Source: an uncultured Thermoplasmata archaeon
GTDB taxonomy: Archaea > Thermoplasmatota > Thermoplasmata > Lutacidiplasmatales > UBA184
Assembly: GCA_963735185.1 (NCBI GenBank)
Contig: CAVTJV010000007.1
Coordinates: 200,566-264,565, forward strand
Direction of reading: 5' to 3'
DNA: 64,000 bases
Below are positions 17,205-53,246 of the stretch, in pieces. The translations under genes were made by a program, and so were the position numbers. How positions within the stretch are numbered: the first letter of the stretch is position 1; each line of letters begins with the position of its first letter. A model generated the notes under the pieces. That model had not been told where the DNA came from and ran no database searches. It saw only the letters and a list, made by a program, of their open reading frames with translations.

Positions 17205-17312
17205 GGCCGGGACCGAGAGTCTCACGATGCGGGGGTGGGCCCCGCGTCGCTTTGAACCCGGGTCGAGGGATCCACAGTCCCCCAGGATAGGCCAAACTAC
17301 CCCATCCCGGCC
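17205..17312 (-). tRNA. tRNA-His(GUG) with encoded G-1 and a 32-nt intron in the T loop (intron 17219-17250)
   Basis: GCCGGGA/TCCCGGC acceptor stem, C73, anticodon loop CTGTGGA, T stem CCGGG/CTCGG; removing the intron gives T loop TTCAAAT; strict BHB at the junctions. Confidence 0.93.
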
Positions 17313-39104: not shown

Positions 39105-40424
39105 GTGAGGGCCATCTGGGTCGGAATCGACGACACGGACAGCCCCCGGGGCGGGTGCACGACCTGGGTCCTCACGGAGCTGCTGACCCTCGCCCGGGAC
39201 GAGGAGGTCGACCTGATCGGGGAGCCCCGACTCGTCCGCCTCAACCCGAACATCCCGTGGAAGACGCGCGGGAACGCCGCGCTCGCGGCCCGCTTCGGCC
39301 GGGGCCGCGGCCGGCGACGGCGGCTGGGCGAGGCCGAAGGGCGGCCGCTCTGGAGCTTCCCCGCAGGAGGACCCCTCCCCCGTTCCCGCGAGGACCAGTT
39401 CCTCGAGCGGGCCTGGGAGCGGGTGCTCGCGAGGTCCCGATTGGGAGAGCCCCGGACCGACCCCGCCCTGGTCGCCGTGCGACGGCGGCTCCCCGCCCGT
39501 CTCTACTACCGGGCAGTACGGGAGATCGTCCCGATCGAGGAGACTCGGCGGTACCTGGAGTCCGTCGGCGCCGTGGTTCGCGCGGAGGGGGACGGGCGAG
39601 GGCTCGTCGGAGCCAGTGCGGCGATCGCCTGGCCCGGTCAAAGGGCTACCTGGGAGCTCATCGCCTATCGGCCCGTCGAGCGCGAAGGGGCCCGCCGGCG
39701 GGTCGACGTGGAGTCGGTCCGAACGACGGCCCGGCGCCATCCGGAGCTGTTCCTCTGCCTGGACCCGCGGACCCGCCGCCTGTTGATCACGCCCCACACT
39801 CCCTGCCCGATCCTCTTCGGCCTTCGGGGAACGCGTCCCTCGTCCCCTCTCCGGGCCCTCGGCGACGTTCGCTCCGAACCGGTCGACCGGTGGGTACTGT
39901 TCCGAACGAACCAAGCGACCGGCGACCACCTCGTACCCCGGCTCGCCCGAGAGGTGGAAGCGTACGGGTCCGGGCGAGTGTCGGCCCAGGTGATGGCGCT
40001 CCCTCACACCTTGCGAGGGGGTCACGTGCGGGTCCGCCTCGAGGACGCGGAGGGGACCGTTCTCGAAACGATCGCCTTCGAGCCGACGAAGACGTTGCCG
40101 CGCATCGTCCGCCACCTCATCCCCGGGGACCAGGTGGAAGTGTGGGGGAGCCGGGGCGCGAGCCCGGTCCTGAAGATGGAAGGCCTCCGCGTGATCTCCC
40201 TGGTGCCCCGATGGACGGAGGGCTCCCCGCCCACGTGCCCGGACTGCCGCCGCGCCACCGGGTCCCTAGGAACCGCTCGAGGGTTCCGGTGTCCTCGATG
40301 CCGACGGCGGTTCCCGCCCGAGGCGGCCCGGCGAACGCGAGCTCCCGCTCCGATCCGACTGGGGGAGTACCATCCCACTCCGTCGGCGCGTCGCCACCTC
40401 GCCCCGCTCGGCCCCGAACCGTGA
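39105..40424 (+). CDS. tiaS: tRNA(Ile2) agmatidine synthetase
   Basis: GIDDTDS..GCTT, LVRLNPNIPWKTRGN, PHTPCPILFGLRG, TNQATGDH, C-terminal zinc ribbon, RRHL. Confidence 0.95.
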   Translation: MRAIWVGIDDTDSPRGGCTTWVLTELLTLARDEEVDLIGEPRLVRLNPNIPWKTRGNAALAARFGRGRGRRRRLGEAEGRPLWSFPAGGPLPRSREDQFLERAWERVLARSRLGEPRTDPALVAVRRRLPARLYYRAVREIVPIEETRRYLESVGAVVRAEGDGRGLVGASAAIAWPGQRATWELIAYRPVEREGARRRVDVESVRTTARRHPELFLCLDPRTRRLLITPHTPCPILFGLRGTRPSSPLRALGDVRSEPVDRWVLFRTNQATGDHLVPRLAREVEAYGSGRVSAQVMALPHTLRGGHVRVRLEDAEGTVLETIAFEPTKTLPRIVRHLIPGDQVEVWGSRGASPVLKMEGLRVISLVPRWTEGSPPTCPDCRRATGSLGTARGFRCPRCRRRFPPEAARRTRAPAPIRLGEYHPTPSARRHLAPLGPEP

Positions 40425-50690: not shown

Positions 50691-50700
50691 CATATAAAAA
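50691..50700 (-). promoter_or_regulatory. dnaK TATA box
   Basis: TTTTTATATG on the minus strand upstream of dnaK. Confidence 0.7.
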
Positions 50701-50705
50701 GACAC

Positions 50706-50714
50706 CTTGACCGC
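50706..50714. repeat. Left target-site duplication CTTGACCGC
   Basis: Identical to 55490-55498; abuts the left inverted repeat. Confidence 0.88.
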
Positions 50715-50736
50715 GGTTCTGCTTTAATTCGTCCGG
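50715..50736 (+). repeat. Left terminal inverted repeat
   Basis: First 10 bp and the inner TCGTCCGG match the right end; a further AATCGTCCGG at 50765-50774. Confidence 0.85.
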
Positions 50737-50813
50737 CGGAGGCCCCATGAATAGGGACAATTCAAATCGTCCGGTGGGTGCCGGTGGGACCACCGACCGA
50801 TTCAAGTCAGGAA

Positions 50814-51825
50814 ATGCCGATGGGTATGGCGATGGGAGCGGGACAGAGACCAATCTATCTGGAGCCCATCCCAGAAATCCGAAGGAGGCTTCAGCTCTAC
50901 TACCTGACCCACCCGAGAGCACGATTCGCAGTTCAGATTGGAGGTACTCGCGGCGGTCTCCTTAGCGGTCCTCGCCTCCCTGTTCTCTGCCGTCCACCTG
51001 CCTCCGAATTACGTTCTTCCGGTGTATGTCGCAGCGGTAACAACGATCGCCCTGGCGGTGACCGTGATTAGCCTATTGGGGCTGAGAGGGCGGTTCACGG
51101 GACTGATCCCGGCGAACGACCCCGGCCACTACAAGCTTCCATACCTTCCAGAAGGGGCCGACCCCTCTAAGGCGGTCATCGGGCGGTTTAGAATACCCGG
51201 ATATCTGGTCTCCGGGACGTACCCAAAAGGCATCGCGGGAGACAACGCGCGGAGGGGGCAGTTCCAGTGGCAGTATCCGCCCGGTCAGAAGCAGACGTTT
51301 AGAACGCTCCAATTCAAATTCGGAGCGATAGCGGTACACGCCACCGGTCGTGATGCAAGGGAAGTCCGGGCCCATGCCAAGATTAGAGTGAGTCACGGGG
51401 TACTTGGGAGCGTTACACCCCATGAGTGGTGCCCTATCGGTCAACTGAACTGGTACTTCGAGTCTTGGGAGGAACGCTTGTGGGGCGATGAGAAACTAGT
51501 CGATGGCGTGCTCACCTACCCCACTCTTGACTACGTCTTCGACTCTCCGAGCCTCGGCTTGAACAAGTTCCTACACAATCCCGAAGTTACGATCCATAGG
51601 GACCAGGGCCACTACCTGCCGCTCTACTACATGCGCGAGGGCTGCTCCGAGGTGTTTCTCTGCGCACAAACCCAATCTCAGATTGCCGGCAGAAGCCCCG
51701 ATGACAACCCAGTTGACTTCGACATCGAACTAGTCATTTCGGCCCTAGATTTTCGGCAGCGGACACTCAAGCTCCACTGCACGGCAAAGTGGGACGTCCT
51801 CACTGTCGAGGTGGGAAAGTGGTAG
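50814..51825 (+). CDS. Transposon cargo: hypothetical protein with two N-terminal TM helices; apparent +1 frameshift at 50943
   Basis: Removing G50943 joins ...RARFAVQIG to VLAAVSLAVLASLF... of the 295-aa ORF; exact start uncertain. Confidence 0.65.
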
Positions 51826-51921
51826 CTTCACTCTGCGGCGGCCCGAATCTCGACCTTAGTCTTTCGACCGCGGGGCTATTCGCTCGCACGATCAACCTCC
51901 GCCGGCGATGAGGCTGTTCTA

Positions 51922-52266
51922 TCATTTCTTGTGATGGCTTCGTTTCTTGCCCTTCGCTGCCTTCGCCTTTTCCTTCTCCGAAACGCGTTTCTTGTAGGCC
52001 TCGGCCCTCTCCTGGGCCTCCCTCAGGGCGGCATCGGGGTCCTCTGTGATGTCAATCACGACCACCCTCTGCCAGCTAGGGTGAACTCGCAAGATACGGC
52101 AGGTCCCCTGGTCGACCAACTTTGGAAACTTCTCGACTCGACCGTACCCCTTCTCAGGGTAATCCCGGGATGCGGTAGTTCGCGCCAAGGCAATCCCGGC
52201 ACAATGAGTGGCCAGATATCTCAATCTGACGACGCGTGGGCCTAATGCGGGATGAACGCGGGCCAT
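51922..52266 (-). CDS. Transposon cargo: hypothetical protein with a Lys-rich C-terminus
   Basis: 114-aa ORF starting next to the repeat array; no motif recognised. Confidence 0.55.
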   Translation of the reverse strand: MARVHPALGPRVVRLRYLATHCAGIALARTTASRDYPEKGYGRVEKFPKLVDQGTCRILRVHPSWQRVVVIDITEDPDAALREAQERAEAYKKRVSEKEKAKAAKGKKRSHHKK

Positions 52267-52282
52267 TCGTCACGGAGGAGTA

Positions 52283-52420
52283 GTGCGCACTGGGTGCGCA
52301 CCAGTTCTCCTTTAACTTGCCAAGGGGTGCACTAAGTGTGCACTGAGTGCGCACTCGGTGCACACCAATTCTTCACGAACTTGCCAAAGGGGTGCACTAA
52401 GTGCGCACTAAGTGCACACA
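52283..52420. repeat. Array of GTGCRCAC-like boxes with 11-bp period inside a ~64-bp tandem duplication
   Basis: About nine GTGCGCAC/GTGCACAC/GTGCAC boxes in groups, separated twice by TTCT..AACTTGCCAA(A)GGG. Confidence 0.9.
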
Positions 52421-52496
52421 AATGTTACGTTTTTCATGGCACTCCATTCTAGCTTATGTACTAGGCGTGGGATTCCATGCCAAAGGTAGGGCCGAA

Positions 52497-52931
52497 GTGA
52501 AAGCGACAATTGGGTCGGTCATAGTCGAGGGCACTCCTCGGGAGGTTGCCGAGCTTGCGCGTGAGCTGGGGTTACATCCTCCGAAGGCCGAGCCCCGGGG
52601 GGACTCACAGGGCGGGGCGACTAACGCTCCCCCTATCGGTGGGGTTACTCCCTTCATACAGTCAACTCTCACGCCGCCCATCAGCATCGAAGCGGTGCTA
52701 AAGCGGATCAAGGCAACCGACCAGGAGGCGGTTGACGCGCTGCTTCGACAGAAGCCGAGTGCCAGCGTCCATGACTTTCTTACCGTCCTCGTTGGCATCG
52801 ACCCCGAGATGGTACTCAGGGGTAGGCGGAACCCGGTCTACACTCGCACCTACAACCGGCTCGCCGCGGCGAGGAGGAAACTCGGGCTCCTAGCACCGAG
52901 CGTTGCCAAGTCCCAGAAGGCGTTACCATGA
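52497..52931 (+). CDS. Transposon cargo: hypothetical protein, possibly DNA-binding
   Basis: GTG start, IVEGTPREVAEL N-terminus, basic helical C-terminus; divergent from 52266 across the repeat array. Confidence 0.65.
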   Translation: MKATIGSVIVEGTPREVAELARELGLHPPKAEPRGDSQGGATNAPPIGGVTPFIQSTLTPPISIEAVLKRIKATDQEAVDALLRQKPSASVHDFLTVLVGIDPEMVLRGRRNPVYTRTYNRLAAARRKLGLLAPSVAKSQKALP

Positions 52932-52942
52932 AGGAGGAATCA

Positions 52943-53062
52943 ATGTTCTCAAACTCGGGAAGGAACAGGAGGGAGAGGCCGCCGCGCCACCGAGAACACT
53001 CACCCCGGCATGGAGTAGAAGTGCACCCAACTGACGCCGCGTCCTCGCCCACTTTGAGATAG
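52943..53062 (+). CDS. Possible 39-aa small ORF
   Basis: AAGGAGG Shine-Dalgarno just before ATG 52943; no other support. Confidence 0.3.
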   Translation: MFSNSGRNRRERPPRHREHSPRHGVEVHPTDAASSPTLR

Positions 53063-53158
53063 GCAGGTTCTACTTAACTCCGACGTTTCCCCGGAACATC
53101 GCGCAAAACGGCCATCTCCACGGCAGGCACGACTTCTAGGGAATGCCGTGCCGGGGTT

Positions 53159-53246
53159 GCGGGGATCGCCTAGACAGGTCAGGGCGACCGGCTTATAACC
53201 GGATGGGTGTGCAAGCACTTCGGGGGTTCAAATCCCCCTCCCCGCG
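53159..53246 (+). tRNA. Class II (Ser-type body) tRNA with UAU anticodon
   Basis: Acceptor GCGGGGA/TCCCCGC with G73; D stem GCCT/GGGC; anticodon arm ACCGG-CTTATAA-CCGGA; variable arm GGGTGT-GCAA-GCACTT; T arm GGGGG-TTCAAAT-CCCCC. Confidence 0.92.

What the first reader, a model, noticed from the sequence alone, without database searches (positions are those of the whole stretch)
53159..53246. Transposon-borne tRNA with a serine-type body and an isoleucine (UAU) anticodon: candidate mistranslating tRNA
Seen: a complete 7/5 cloverleaf with anticodon loop CT-TAT-AA, a 6-bp variable arm with a GCAA loop, G73, one A-A mismatch at 27-43 and no encoded CCA. Known: in archaea long variable arms mark Ser and Leu tRNAs; G73 with a long arm is serine identity; SerRS ignores the anticodon; Ile tRNAs are class I with A73. 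Most archaea avoid UAU and read AUA with agmatidine-modified CAU, and tiaS is intact in this window (39105-40424), so the host does not need this tRNA. Inference: it would be serylated (Leu is less likely) and insert the wrong residue at AUA, possibly also AUG. AUA looks rare in these GC-rich host genes, so AT-richer invaders would be hit harder; defence or addiction are plausible roles. It recalls bacterial allo-tRNAs with UAU anticodons but has a canonical 7/5 fold. At least two substitutions separate UAU from any Ser anticodon, so a single read error is unlikely.
Basis: partly seen in the sequence, partly recalled or inferred. Interest (0 to 1): 0.95.

Follow-up and report, generated by a model that had tools for sequence, protein, structure and literature searches.

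The report
Transposon-borne hybrid Ser/Ile tRNA gene
A soil archaeon carries, on a small jumping element, an intact tRNA gene that joins the body of its serine tRNA to the anticodon arm of its isoleucine tRNA, so it could put serine where the code says isoleucine, though nothing yet shows that it is made or used.

Summary
Window 53159-53246 (+) is a well-formed 88-nt class II tRNA gene with anticodon UAU, G73 and no encoded CCA. An independent contig from a second sample has the same sequence.

New here: it is a hybrid. The acceptor stem, T arm and discriminator match the host tRNA-Ser(GCU) at 32 of 32 positions. The anticodon arm matches host tRNA-Ile2(CAU) and tRNA-Ile1(GAU) at 15 of 17 each, against 6 of 17 for tRNA-Ser(GCU).

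It is cargo on a 4.77-kb element with terminal inverted repeats and an IS6-like transposase. Other contigs of the same soil study lack the element precisely.

No homologue was found in 186 genomes of the order, 401 of the phylum, or three public collections.

Serine identity elements are all present, and SerRS ignores the anticodon. So serylation and reading of AUA (probably also AUG and AUU) is the best mechanism. Against function: the upstream promoter motif is weak, no RNA data exist, and the gene is a singleton. A DPANN genome suggests that long-arm UAU tRNAs can be true Ile tRNAs.

Verdict: real and unusual; function unproven.

The parts
53159..53246 (+). Hybrid class II tRNA gene (called X in this report). 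Anticodon UAU at 53194-53196, discriminator G73 at 53246, A27-A43 mismatch, 6-bp variable arm, no encoded CCA.
   Evidence: ARAGORN. Rfam RF00005 53.9 bits. Cloverleaf is the MFE, z -3.25. Segment identities to host tRNAs. Same sequence in an X2 contig.
53144..53262 (.). 11-nt inverted repeat (53144-53154 and 53252-53262, 10 of 11 complementary) bracketing the tRNA. It could form a leader-trailer helix. Meaning unknown.
   Evidence: the repeat finder pair I22. In the MFE of 53110-53275 each flank instead folds on itself.
50717..55488 (.). 4772-bp mobile element that carries X. G+C is 57-63% against about 67-68% around it. It is absent from the closest relative and from other contigs of the same soil study.
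   Evidence: Homology to G168, G142 and G039 breaks at 50700-50707 and resumes at 55591-55594. Contigs in runs X1 and X3 join 50704 to 55489, skipping 4784 nt. Composition. Single copy in the genome.
50717..50736 (+). Left terminal inverted repeat of the element.
   Evidence: Local alignment of the left end with the reverse complement of the right end: 19 matched positions, two gaps.
55467..55487 (-). Right terminal inverted repeat of the element.
50705..50716 (.). Left copy of the 12-nt direct repeat flanking the element (target duplication or recombination core).
   Evidence: the repeat finder family D19. 12 letters fit either side of the joint.
55489..55500 (.). Right copy of the 12-nt direct repeat.
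53606..54778 (+). IS6-like DDE transposase with an N-terminal SWIM/zinc-finger region, 390 aa.
   Evidence: Pfam DDE_Tnp_IS240 1.6e-14 and SWIM. NCBIfam IS6 transposase NF033587 119.3 bits, cut-off 125. Relatives in 56 of 186 genomes of the order.
53307..53507 (-). 66-aa AbrB/MazE-like ORF, divergent from the transposase and convergent with X. Its stop lies 61 nt from the 3' end of X.
   Evidence: PF04014 22.7 bits, E 9.7e-05, below the 24.7 cut-off. 76% nucleotide identity to G127:C5:12706-12993, with changes biased to one codon position (36/19/21).
50938..51825 (+). Cargo ORF of 295 aa: two N-terminal hydrophobic helices and a beta-rich domain. Function unknown.
   Evidence: 6 proteins at E <= 0.001, one of them at 99% identity and 5 more distant, none with Pfam. 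Model pLDDT 64, no fold match at E <= 0.001.
51922..52266 (-). Cargo ORF of 114 aa with a basic C-terminus. Function unknown.
   Evidence: No hit in Pfam, PHROGs, NCBIfam or PADLOC.
52280..52420 (.). Array of iteron- or operator-like repeats of an approximately 11-nt unit, partly palindromic, between the 114-aa and 176-aa ORFs.
   Evidence: the repeat finder families D1-D3 and pairs I1, I4, I5, I7, I10.
52401..52931 (+). Cargo ORF of 176 aa, same strand as X and ending 228 nt upstream of it. Function unknown.
54782..55441 (+). Cargo ORF of 219 aa, starting 4 nt after the transposase stop. Function unknown.
   Evidence: Only 2 matches in the 5.8-billion-cluster search. No family hit.
39105..40424 (+). 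Host TiaS-like gene (context only). Together with tRNA-Ile2(CAU) elsewhere in the genome it is the host's own AUA decoding route.
   Evidence: NF040849 265 bits. Genome search. tRNA-Ile2 at G000:C7:1031537-1031612.

Best explanation
X is a genuine, structurally intact hybrid tRNA gene carried as cargo on a 4.77-kb IS6-like transposon.

Its outer parts (acceptor stem, T arm, long variable arm, G73) are those of this lineage's tRNA-Ser(GCU). The 3' end of its D loop and its whole anticodon arm are those of the lineage's tRNA-Ile, with U at position 34.

If transcribed and processed, the host's bacterial-type SerRS should charge it with serine. SerRS reads G73, the long arm and G30-C40, and does not read the anticodon. 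By analogy with haloarchaeal U34 mutants of tRNA-Ile, it would then pair with AUA best, and also with AUG and AUU. The result would be serine at isoleucine (and some methionine) codons, in competition with the host's agmatidine tRNA-Ile2.

The weak upstream promoter motif and the A27-A43 mismatch suggest a low dose. The expected effect is therefore low-level statistical mistranslation, not recoding.

Shown: the anatomy, the hybrid origin, the mobile context and the polymorphism. Inferred: transcription, serylation, codon reading and any benefit. The confidence given is for the mechanism (expressed, serylated, reads AUA); the anatomy itself I hold at above 0.95.
For: The gene is real and intact and is reproduced in a second sample.

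Segment identities:
- To host tRNA-Ser(GCU): acceptor 7/7 + 7/7, T arm 17/17, discriminator 1/1, variable region 10/18.
- Anticodon arm: 15/17 to tRNA-Ile2(CAU), 15/17 to tRNA-Ile1(GAU), 6/17 to tRNA-Ser(GCU).
- BLAST gives 22 of 24 identical between X nt 21-44 and tRNA-Ile2.

Identity rules:
- G73 and G30-C40 are strong identity elements for bacterial-type and archaeal SerRS.
- The size of the extra arm, not its sequence, is decisive.
- G73 is an antideterminant for H. volcanii LeuRS (PMC9976931, passages).
- X keeps G30-C40 (read). The host SerRS is TIGR00414 at 443.6 bits, above the cut-off.

X lacks three of the bacterial Ile determinants (A73, C4-G69, U12-A23; Table 1 of PMC9976931).

C34U and G34U mutants of haloarchaeal tRNA-Ile are poor substrates of the archaeal IleRS. 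They bind AUA > AUG > AUU and slow growth (PMC3895270, abstract and passages).

tRNA-Ser with an Ile anticodon is toxic in yeast through Ser insertion (PMC6125640, passages).

AUA is the second-rarest sense codon of the host (430 of 423,905 codons in 1149 crude ORFs), so a low dose is tolerable.
Against: No evidence of transcription:
- The best BRE/TATA-like score upstream of X is 3.8 bits. Only 3 of 32 host tRNAs score as low or lower, and 14% of 3000 random windows score as high or higher.
- There is no RNA data set.

Singleton. The class II UAU pattern occurs in 1 of 186 genomes of the order (X itself) and in 2 of 401 of the phylum sample. The second of those is not a tRNA by ARAGORN. No full-length BLAST relative exists in the order. 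So there is no covariation or conservation to show selection.

[quoted passage not shown] This could alter SerRS recognition.

In a Nanohalarchaeota MAG (G186):
- Two long-arm UAU tRNAs with G73 coexist with AUA as 41 of 54 Ile codons of ileS.
- Most of the AUA positions I could read in the printed alignment align with I, L or V of a solved IleRS.
- No TiaS hit was found.
- So such tRNAs may be isoleucylated in some archaea.

The single AUA codon of the transposase sits at a position that is also Ile in a homologue, so the element does not rely on AUA = Ser.
Confidence: 0.4

Rival explanations
1. X is a silent by-product. A recombinant or gene-converted tRNA copy arose among tRNA genes and was picked up by the transposon. 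It is not expressed at a meaningful level and has no function, and it has not yet decayed because it is young.
For: Weak promoter score. Singleton in every search. The A27-A43 mismatch sits in an otherwise perfect arm. The element is a low-frequency polymorphism: its depth is 2.5-5.6 against 12.1 for the flank in run X1. Another member of the same transposase family (G113, locus L158) lies 154 nt downstream of a degenerate class II tRNA-like sequence that fails Rfam's tRNA threshold. Mukai et al. likewise concluded that most allo-tRNA(UAU) species may not be used in translation (PMC5389517, passages).
Against: Every conserved tertiary and stem position is intact. The Rfam score equals that of working host class II tRNAs. 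The join of the two parents is in register: both halves of the anticodon stem are Ile-type and both halves of the acceptor and T stems are Ser-type. Random decay or a single crossover would not give that. 3 of 32 host tRNAs have promoter scores as low or lower.
Confidence: 0.33
2. X is an isoleucine-accepting, TiaS-independent AUA decoder that the element carries to translate its own AUA-richer genes. This is the usual role of tRNAs on mobile elements. IleRS would recognise the Ile-type anticodon arm despite the serine-type body.
For: The anticodon arm is Ile-type and includes C29-G41, A35, U36, A37 and A38. Island ORFs use AUA at 5 per 1199 codons (4.2 per 1000) against 1.0 per 1000 in the host set. 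In G186 two long-arm UAU/G73 tRNAs, one of them 233 nt from ileS, appear to be the only AUA decoders recovered, in a genome where AUA is the main Ile codon.
Against: X has G73 instead of A73 and lacks C4-G69 and U12-A23. Even with a complete Ile body, U34 mutants are poor substrates of a TiaS-using archaeon's IleRS (PMC3895270). SerRS determinants are complete, so at best charging would be mixed. G186 yielded only 18 tRNAs, so its evidence is weak. The host AUA estimate comes from ORFs chosen for high GC3, which biases it low.
Confidence: 0.17
3. X has a non-translational role tied to the element. It could be an insertion landmark for this IS family, a processing or termination structure, or a decoy or regulator RNA.
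For: Two of 25 loci of this transposase family have a class II tRNA(-like) sequence 360-430 nt upstream of the transposase start. An 11-nt inverted repeat brackets X. The AbrB/MazE-like gene converges on X, so read-through would give antisense X (inference).
Against: In G113 the tRNA-like sequence lies outside the IS end, and the spacer sequences are unrelated. 23 of 25 loci have none. Nothing in the sequence requires such a role.
Confidence: 0.08

Closest known systems
Bacterial allo-tRNA(UAU) (Mukai et al. 2017, PMC5389517; passages read; review PMC7609411)
   Same: Long-arm tRNAs with serine-type features and non-serine anticodons, UAU being the commonest. They are found near transposon-related genes and toxin-antitoxin genes. 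Their authors doubted that the UAU group is used in translation.
   Different: allo-tRNAs are defined by 8/4 or 9/3 acceptor/T stems and are bacterial (mostly acidobacterial). X has a canonical 7/5 fold, is archaeal, and is a hybrid of two identifiable host tRNAs. Supplementary figures of that paper were not seen and could list other forms.
Nematode nev-tRNA-Ile(UAU) and nev-tRNA-Gly(CCC) (PMC3333845, abstract and passages; PMC4300185, abstract only)
   Same: Canonical class II tRNAs whose anticodon (UAU among them) does not match the amino acid dictated by the body. This gives potential code ambiguity at AUA.
   Different: nev-tRNAs have A73 and are leucylated. They are chromosomal, multi-copy and conserved across nematodes. 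X has G73 (serine-type), is single-copy, unconserved and transposon-borne.
Engineered U34 mutants of haloarchaeal tRNA-Ile2 and tRNA-Ile1 (Mandal et al. 2014, PMC3895270; abstract and passages)
   Same: The anticodon arm of X is essentially that of such a mutant: 15 of 17 identical to the host tRNA-Ile2, with the loop differing only at position 34. This is the only experimental guide to its codon reading (AUA > AUG > AUU; cnm5U34).
   Different: Those mutants keep the full Ile body and were made in the laboratory. X has a serine body and is natural.
tRNA-Ser anticodon variants that mistranslate (yeast tS-I(GAU), PMC6125640, passages; human and yeast variants, PMC12993449 and PMC6827378, search listing and abstracts only)
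   Same: The principle is the same: SerRS ignores the anticodon, so a serine body with a foreign anticodon inserts Ser at that codon. Secondary stem mutations are reported to temper toxicity.
   Different: These arise by point mutation of the anticodon. X has a whole foreign anticodon arm and sits on a mobile element in an archaeon.
Long-arm tRNA(UAU) genes found here: two in a Nanohalarchaeota MAG (G186), one in a Thermoproteota SAG (L150), 12 in bacterial genome loci, 8 in phage contig loci
   Same: Canonical-looking class II tRNAs with UAU. The three archaeal ones also have G73, and one shares its acceptor stem with its genome's tRNA-Ser(GGA).
   Different: None is a sequence relative of X. 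In G186 they may be the real Ile decoders.

Membership tests
tRNA (Rfam RF00005) | Covariance-model score at or above the gathering score, with a full-length match | tested here: met
   53.9 bits against 29, model positions 1-71 of 71.
tRNA (Rfam RF00005) | Cloverleaf with 7-bp acceptor and 5-bp T stem, U8, A14, G18-G19, U33, T-loop consensus | tested here: met
   ARAGORN drawing. Cloverleaf is the MFE. Residues read.
tRNA-Ser (substrate of bacterial-type or archaeal SerRS) | Long variable arm (class II) | tested here: met
   18-nt variable region with a 6-bp stem. The number of unpaired bases at its base differs from the host tRNA-Ser.
tRNA-Ser (substrate of bacterial-type or archaeal SerRS) | Discriminator G73 and the G30-C40 pair | tested here: met
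   Both present. Rule taken from PMC9976931.
tRNA-Ser (substrate of bacterial-type or archaeal SerRS) | Acceptor stem and T arm of the organism's tRNA-Ser | tested here: met
   14/14 and 17/17 identical to host tRNA-Ser(GCU).
tRNA-Ser (substrate of bacterial-type or archaeal SerRS) | Serine anticodon (NGA or GCU) | tested here: not met
   The anticodon is UAU, and the anticodon arm is only 6/17 identical to tRNA-Ser(GCU).
tRNA-Ser (substrate of bacterial-type or archaeal SerRS) | Actual serylation | not testable with these tools
   Needs in vitro charging or acid-gel/mass-spectrometry analysis.
tRNA-Ile | Anticodon-branch determinants A35, U36, A37, A38 and C29-G41 | tested here: met
   All present. 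The list is from Table 1 of PMC9976931 for Bacteria. The archaeal set is not known.
tRNA-Ile | A73, C4-G69, U12-A23 and a short (class I) variable loop | tested here: not met
   X has G73, G4-C69, C12-G23 and an 18-nt variable region. Host tRNA-Ile1 and tRNA-Ile2 have all four.
tRNA-Leu (archaeal) | Discriminator A73 | tested here: not met
   X has G73, which is an antideterminant for H. volcanii LeuRS (PMC9976931). The acceptor stem is nevertheless 7/7 + 7/7 identical to host tRNA-Leu(CAG).
allo-tRNA | 12-bp acceptor branch arranged 8/4 or 9/3 | tested here: not met
   X is 7/5. Definition from the abstract of PMC5389517.
nev-tRNA | Class II tRNA with A73 and leucine identity, nematode-specific | tested here: not met
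   X has G73 and is archaeal.
IS6-family transposon | IS6-type DDE transposase | tested here: inconclusive
   NF033587 119.3 bits, just under the 125 cut-off. Pfam DDE_Tnp_IS240 1.6e-14.
IS6-family transposon | Terminal inverted repeats and a short target duplication (8 bp is typical of IS6; recalled, from no call) | tested here: inconclusive
   Imperfect inverted repeats of about 20 nt are present. The flanking direct repeat is 12 nt, not 8.

The most novel reading that the evidence does not exclude
The element carries a deliberately 'toxic' adaptor. X would be a serine-charged tRNA built from host parts to read AUA, AUG and AUU. It would be kept at a low dose by a weak promoter, a stem mismatch and antisense read-through from the converging AbrB/MazE-like gene. 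It would act either as a selfish addiction module or as a weapon against AT-richer invaders. This would be the first natural genetic-code-ambiguity tRNA in Archaea and the first tRNA acting as the toxin of a mobile element.
Probability: 0.12. Interest if true: 0.9.

Novelty: new variant of a known kind. Interest (0 to 1): 0.62.

Why it matters
Natural tRNAs whose body and anticodon disagree are the raw material of genetic-code change and of regulated mistranslation. Known cases are bacterial (allo-tRNAs, with odd folds) or eukaryotic (nev-tRNAs, point-mutant tRNA-Ser).

X would add three things:
- an archaeal, canonical-fold example;
- one whose two parents can both be named in the same genome, which shows that whole-arm exchange between tRNA genes happens in nature;
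- one that travels on a transposon and so can be moved between hosts.

It also offers a clean experimental object. The SerRS, IleRS, tRNA-Ser(GCU) and tRNA-Ile2 genes are all available from the same assembly for charging and reporter tests.

The side finding matters too. A DPANN genome appears to rely on long-arm UAU tRNAs for its main Ile codon. If that holds, the textbook link between class II architecture and Ser/Leu identity in Archaea needs checking.

Tried and rejected
Tried without useful result:
- RNA evidence: the look-up of sequencing runs listed 4 DNA runs of one soil study and no RNA holder. Nothing can be said on expression from reads.
- The sigma-70 promoter/terminator scan found 0 sites, as expected for an archaeon, and is uninformative.
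- Cargo function: Pfam, PHROGs, NCBIfam and PADLOC gave nothing for the 295-, 114-, 176- and 219-aa ORFs.
- The 219-aa ORF has 2 matches. The 295-aa ORF has 6.
- The AlphaFold model of the 295-aa ORF has pLDDT 64.3 and pTM 0.60. It gave 0 PDB matches at E <= 0.001, best TM 0.24.
- DNA of the cargo half (50717-53600) has no relative in the order. The only matches were the AbrB-like block in G127, partial tRNA matches and one 49-nt match in G100.

Considered and rejected:
- X as a mutated tRNA-Leu(UAA), one substitution away. Rejected because of G73, the T arm and the variable arm.
- The variable arm as a non-canonical intron. Rejected because it has no bulge-helix-bulge and is homologous to the tRNA-Ser(GCU) arm.
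- AUA recoded to Ser for the element's own genes. The one AUA of the transposase is at a position that is Ile in a homologue.
- X as an integration (att) remnant. The element has inverted-repeat ends and a DDE transposase, and X lies 2.4 kb inside it.
- Assembly chimera. Shared exact stretches with either parent are shorter than 31 nt, and a second sample gives the same contig.

I call it only an archaeon from soil metagenomes.

Slips and a correction:
- One search was rejected for a badly formed search term and repeated.
- One search had wrong frame coordinates and was repeated as without that ORF.
- The correct count is 8 of 57.

Unpublished genomes: G162, G163 and G164 are among the genomes tallied. 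In some searches they are three of the negatives. In some searches they gave only partial tRNA matches or dnaK matches. Locus L198 (G162) was fetched and not used. No positive claim rests on them.

Supplementary files of the papers were not opened. Those of PMC5389517 and PMC3333845 may list further long-arm UAU tRNAs.
Full report
**1. Is it there?**

Yes. ARAGORN reports a 90-nt tRNA with anticodon tat at 53158-53247. Rfam's tRNA model matches 53159-53246 on the + strand over its full length at 53.9 bits, against a gathering score of 29. This is inside the 43.6-61.8 bit range of the genome's own class II tRNAs.

Folded alone, the 88 nt adopt as their minimum-energy structure a cloverleaf with a fifth arm. 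Energy is -43.8 kcal/mol, z -3.25, and 1 of 200 shuffles folds as well.

- 7/5 acceptor/T stems;
- a 7-nt anticodon loop with UAU at 53194-53196;
- an A27-A43 mismatch;
- a 6-bp variable arm (three of the pairs G-U) closed by a 4-nt loop;
- G73 at 53246;
- no encoded CCA.

A contig from a second sample of the same soil study covers 53115-53288 with no difference. No variant letter is listed inside the gene in any of the four runs laid. Depth is only about 3.

**2. What is it made of?**

The assembly is 2.17 Mb in 9 contigs, 85.8% complete and about 67% G+C. It holds these genes:
- a tRNA-Ser(GCU) with a 32-nt intron inside the T loop (G000:C7:64192-64308);
- a tRNA-Ile(GAU);
- a tRNA(CAU) whose acceptor stem and A73 are those of tRNA-Ile(GAU), that is, tRNA-Ile2;
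- a TiaS-like gene in the window.

I aligned these by reference and counted identities from the stored alignment.

| Segment of X | tRNA-Ser(GCU) | tRNA-Ile2(CAU) | tRNA-Ile1(GAU) |
|---|---|---|---|
| Acceptor stem | 14/14 | 4/14 | 4/14 |
| T arm | 17/17 | 13/17 | 13/17 |
| Discriminator | 1/1 | 0/1 | 0/1 |
| Variable region | 10/18 | 4/18 | 4/18 |
| Anticodon arm | 6/17 | 15/17 | 15/17 |

- BLAST extends the Ile2 likeness into the 3' end of the D loop: 22 of 24 for X nt 21-44.
- The 5' strand of the anticodon stem is that of Ile2 and the 3' strand is that of Ile1. This is what creates the A27-A43 mismatch. Position 34 is U in X, where Ile2 has C and Ile1 has G.
- The core of the variable arm is closer to the intron-less tRNA-Ser(GCU) of the sister genus than to the host's own.

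So X is not a serine tRNA with a mutated anticodon. It is a hybrid: a serine body with an isoleucine anticodon arm, joined in register on both sides.

**3. Where does it sit?**

The closest relative by dnaK (G168, 93% nucleotide identity) has dnaK and PPK2 60 nt apart. In the window, homology breaks at 50700 and resumes at 55591.

Contigs of runs X1 and X3 join 50704 directly to 55489, skipping 4784 nt, with 12 letters common to both sides.
- The X3 contig has 175 nt on the shorter side of the joint. It comes from a related strain: 29 differences in the dnaK part.
- The X1 contig has only 18 nt on one side.

The skipped DNA has these features:
- it is bounded by a 12-nt direct repeat and by imperfect terminal inverted repeats of about 20 nt;
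- its G+C is lower, 57-63%;
- it is single-copy in the assembly.

Its contents, in order:
- a 295-aa membrane-anchored ORF;
- a 114-aa ORF;
- an array of iteron-like repeats;
- a 176-aa ORF;
- X;
- a 66-aa AbrB/MazE-like ORF on the other strand (PF04014 at 22.7 bits, below the cut-off; conserved in G127 with codon-position-biased changes);
- an IS6-like transposase;
- a 219-aa ORF.

'Transposon-borne' is therefore right. The nuance is that X is cargo, lying outside the conserved AbrB-like/transposase core.

The transposase family occurs in 56 of 186 genomes of the order. It also lies beside dnaK in 4 of the 12 relatives whose dnaK flank I fetched.

Of 25 transposase loci scanned, 2 hold a class II tRNA(-like) sequence upstream: X itself and G113. 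The G113 sequence is degenerate (C33; 31.3 bits to the tRNA-Sec model only) and lies outside the IS end.

**4. Is it found elsewhere?**

No close relative was found.
- BLAST with X over 186 genomes of the order gives only partial matches to tRNA-Ser(GCU) and tRNA-Leu(CAG).
- A pattern for 'UAU loop, then 18-30 nt, then T arm' hits 1 of 186 genomes in the order (X itself).
- The same pattern hits 2 of 401 in a sample of the phylum. The second hit is not a tRNA by ARAGORN.

Related patterns in three public collections gave these results:

| Collection | Loci hit | ARAGORN tRNA(UAU) of 84-96 nt |
|---|---|---|
| IMG/VR | 57 | 8 |
| GTDB representative genomes | 76 | 14 (2 archaeal) |
| JGI metagenomes | 7 | 4 |

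None is a sequence relative of X. The patterns fix the T-loop sequence and therefore under-count.

**5. How would it work?**

Shown:
- The host has a bacterial-type SerRS.
- X has every element reported for such enzymes. The reported elements are the long arm (size, not sequence), G73 and G30-C40 (PMC9976931). X also has the very acceptor stem and T arm of a cognate tRNA-Ser.
- G73 blocks archaeal LeuRS (same source).
- X lacks A73, C4-G69 and U12-A23, which are Ile determinants in bacteria.

From experiment on relatives: C34U and G34U mutants of haloarchaeal tRNA-Ile are poor IleRS substrates. They carry cnm5U34, bind AUA > AUG > AUU on ribosomes, and slow growth (PMC3895270).

Inferred: if X is made, it is serylated and inserts Ser mainly at AUA and to some degree at AUG and AUU.

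Codon frequencies in a crude set of 1149 ORFs chosen for GC3 bias, which probably understates AUA:

| Codon | Per 1000 codons |
|---|---|
| AUA | 1.0 |
| AUG | 16.4 |
| AUU | 3.0 |

Dose is probably low. A BRE/TATA-like motif learned from 32 host tRNA upstream regions has a median score of 8.0 bits and lies near -36. Upstream of X it scores 3.8 bits. Three of 32 host tRNAs score as low or lower, and 14% of random windows score as high or higher.

**6. What speaks against this reading?**

There is no transcription evidence and no conservation. [quoted passage not shown]

One counter-example weakens the identity rule. G186 is an Asbonarchaeaceae (Nanohalarchaeota) MAG of 1.1 Mb.
- It holds two long-arm UAU tRNAs with G73.
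- One lies 233 nt from ileS, and its acceptor stem is that of its genome's tRNA-Ser(GGA).
- No TiaS hit was found.
- AUA accounts for 41 of 54 Ile codons of ileS.
- Most of the AUA positions I could read in the printed alignment align with I, L or V of a solved IleRS.

There AUA must mean Ile, so those tRNAs may be isoleucylated. But only 18 tRNAs of that genome were recovered. A missed tRNA-Ile2 and tiaS cannot be excluded.

I therefore give these odds:

| Reading | Probability |
|---|---|
| Serine-charging | 0.40 |
| Silent by-product | 0.33 |
| Isoleucine-accepting AUA helper | 0.17 |
| Non-translational role | 0.08 |

The helper reading fits the island's AUA use, which is four times the host's (5 of 1199 codons).

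**7. Comparison with what is known**

X works like allo-tRNA(UAU) and nev-tRNA-Ile(UAU) but belongs to neither.
- It is 7/5, not 8/4 or 9/3.
- It has G73, not A73.
- It is archaeal.

Its association with a transposase and an antitoxin-like gene echoes what Mukai et al. reported for allo-tRNA(UAU).

The searches I ran were:
- 'allo-tRNA' + 'UAU';
- 'nev-tRNA';
- 'class II tRNA', 'UAU', 'archaea', 'variable arm';
- 'chimeric tRNA', 'mistranslation', 'mobile genetic element';
- 'V-arm-containing' + 'archaea';
- 'tRNASer', 'isoleucine anticodon', 'archaea'.

None turned up a report of an archaeal class II tRNA with a non-Ser/Leu anticodon, or of a natural Ser/Ile hybrid tRNA. I judged this from listings and abstracts, without supplements, so it is not proof of absence.

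**8. Verdict**

I rate it a new variant of a known kind, interest 0.62.

Noticed in passing
L246 (= L079:5366-5455) and L244:1501-1586, genome G186 (Asbonarchaeaceae MAG): Two class-II-like tRNA(UAU) genes with G73 in one DPANN genome, one of them 233 nt from a divergent ileS. No TiaS hit. AUA is 41 of 54 Ile codons in ileS and aligns mostly with I, L or V of a solved IleRS. This is possibly a class-II-like tRNA-Ile, but only 18 tRNAs of the genome were recovered.
   Followed up: partly
L150:1056-1140 (Thermoproteota SAG AM-311-L02, genome G187): An 85-nt class II tRNA with UAU and G73, on a 2.2-kb contig with three ORFs that have no Pfam hit. The genome has a TiaS match (452.7 bits). This is a second case resembling X in a TiaS-bearing archaeon.
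   Followed up: partly
IMG/VR loci such as L022, L029, L032, L036, L043, L045, L076 (of 57 loci): A large family of tRNA-like sequences in phage contigs, by eye about 35 of the 57 loci. They have an acceptor-like stem, a normal T arm and a UAU-type loop, but no normal D arm. ARAGORN does not call them. Eight other loci carry 87-93-nt tRNA(UAU) genes with long variable regions.
   Followed up: no
G000:C7:64192-64308 (outside the window): The host tRNA-Ser(GCU) gene is interrupted by a 32-nt insert inside the T loop, a non-canonical intron position. ARAGORN and Rfam both missed the gene, and BLAST with the sister genus's gene found it.
   Followed up: partly
L158:984-1073 (G113:C28): A 90-nt class II tRNA-like sequence with A73, a Leu-like D arm, the anticodon stem of tRNA-Ser(UGA), and a loop with C33 and 'UCC'. 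It lies 154 nt outside the end of an IS of the same transposase family. It scores 31.3 bits to the tRNA-Sec model only.
   Followed up: partly
window 52280-52420: A dense array of direct and palindromic repeats of an approximately 11-nt unit between two divergent small ORFs of the element. It looks like iterons or an operator, and hints that the cargo derives from a plasmid or virus.
   Followed up: no
window 53508-53605: The 98-nt spacer between the AbrB/MazE-like ORF and the transposase holds a 13-nt motif twice. It is conserved in G127 and is likely an operator for the small DNA-binding protein.
   Followed up: no
window 50700 / 55590 and relatives' loci L209-L220: The dnaK-PPK2 intergenic site is a hot spot. 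It is 60 nt in G168, about 600 nt in G142 and about 2.7 kb in G039. Transposase homologues lie beside dnaK in G184, G161, G074 and G179.
   Followed up: partly
window 17237-17312 (-): ARAGORN calls a tRNA-His(GUG) here, but it does not reach Rfam's gathering score in the window scan.
   Followed up: no
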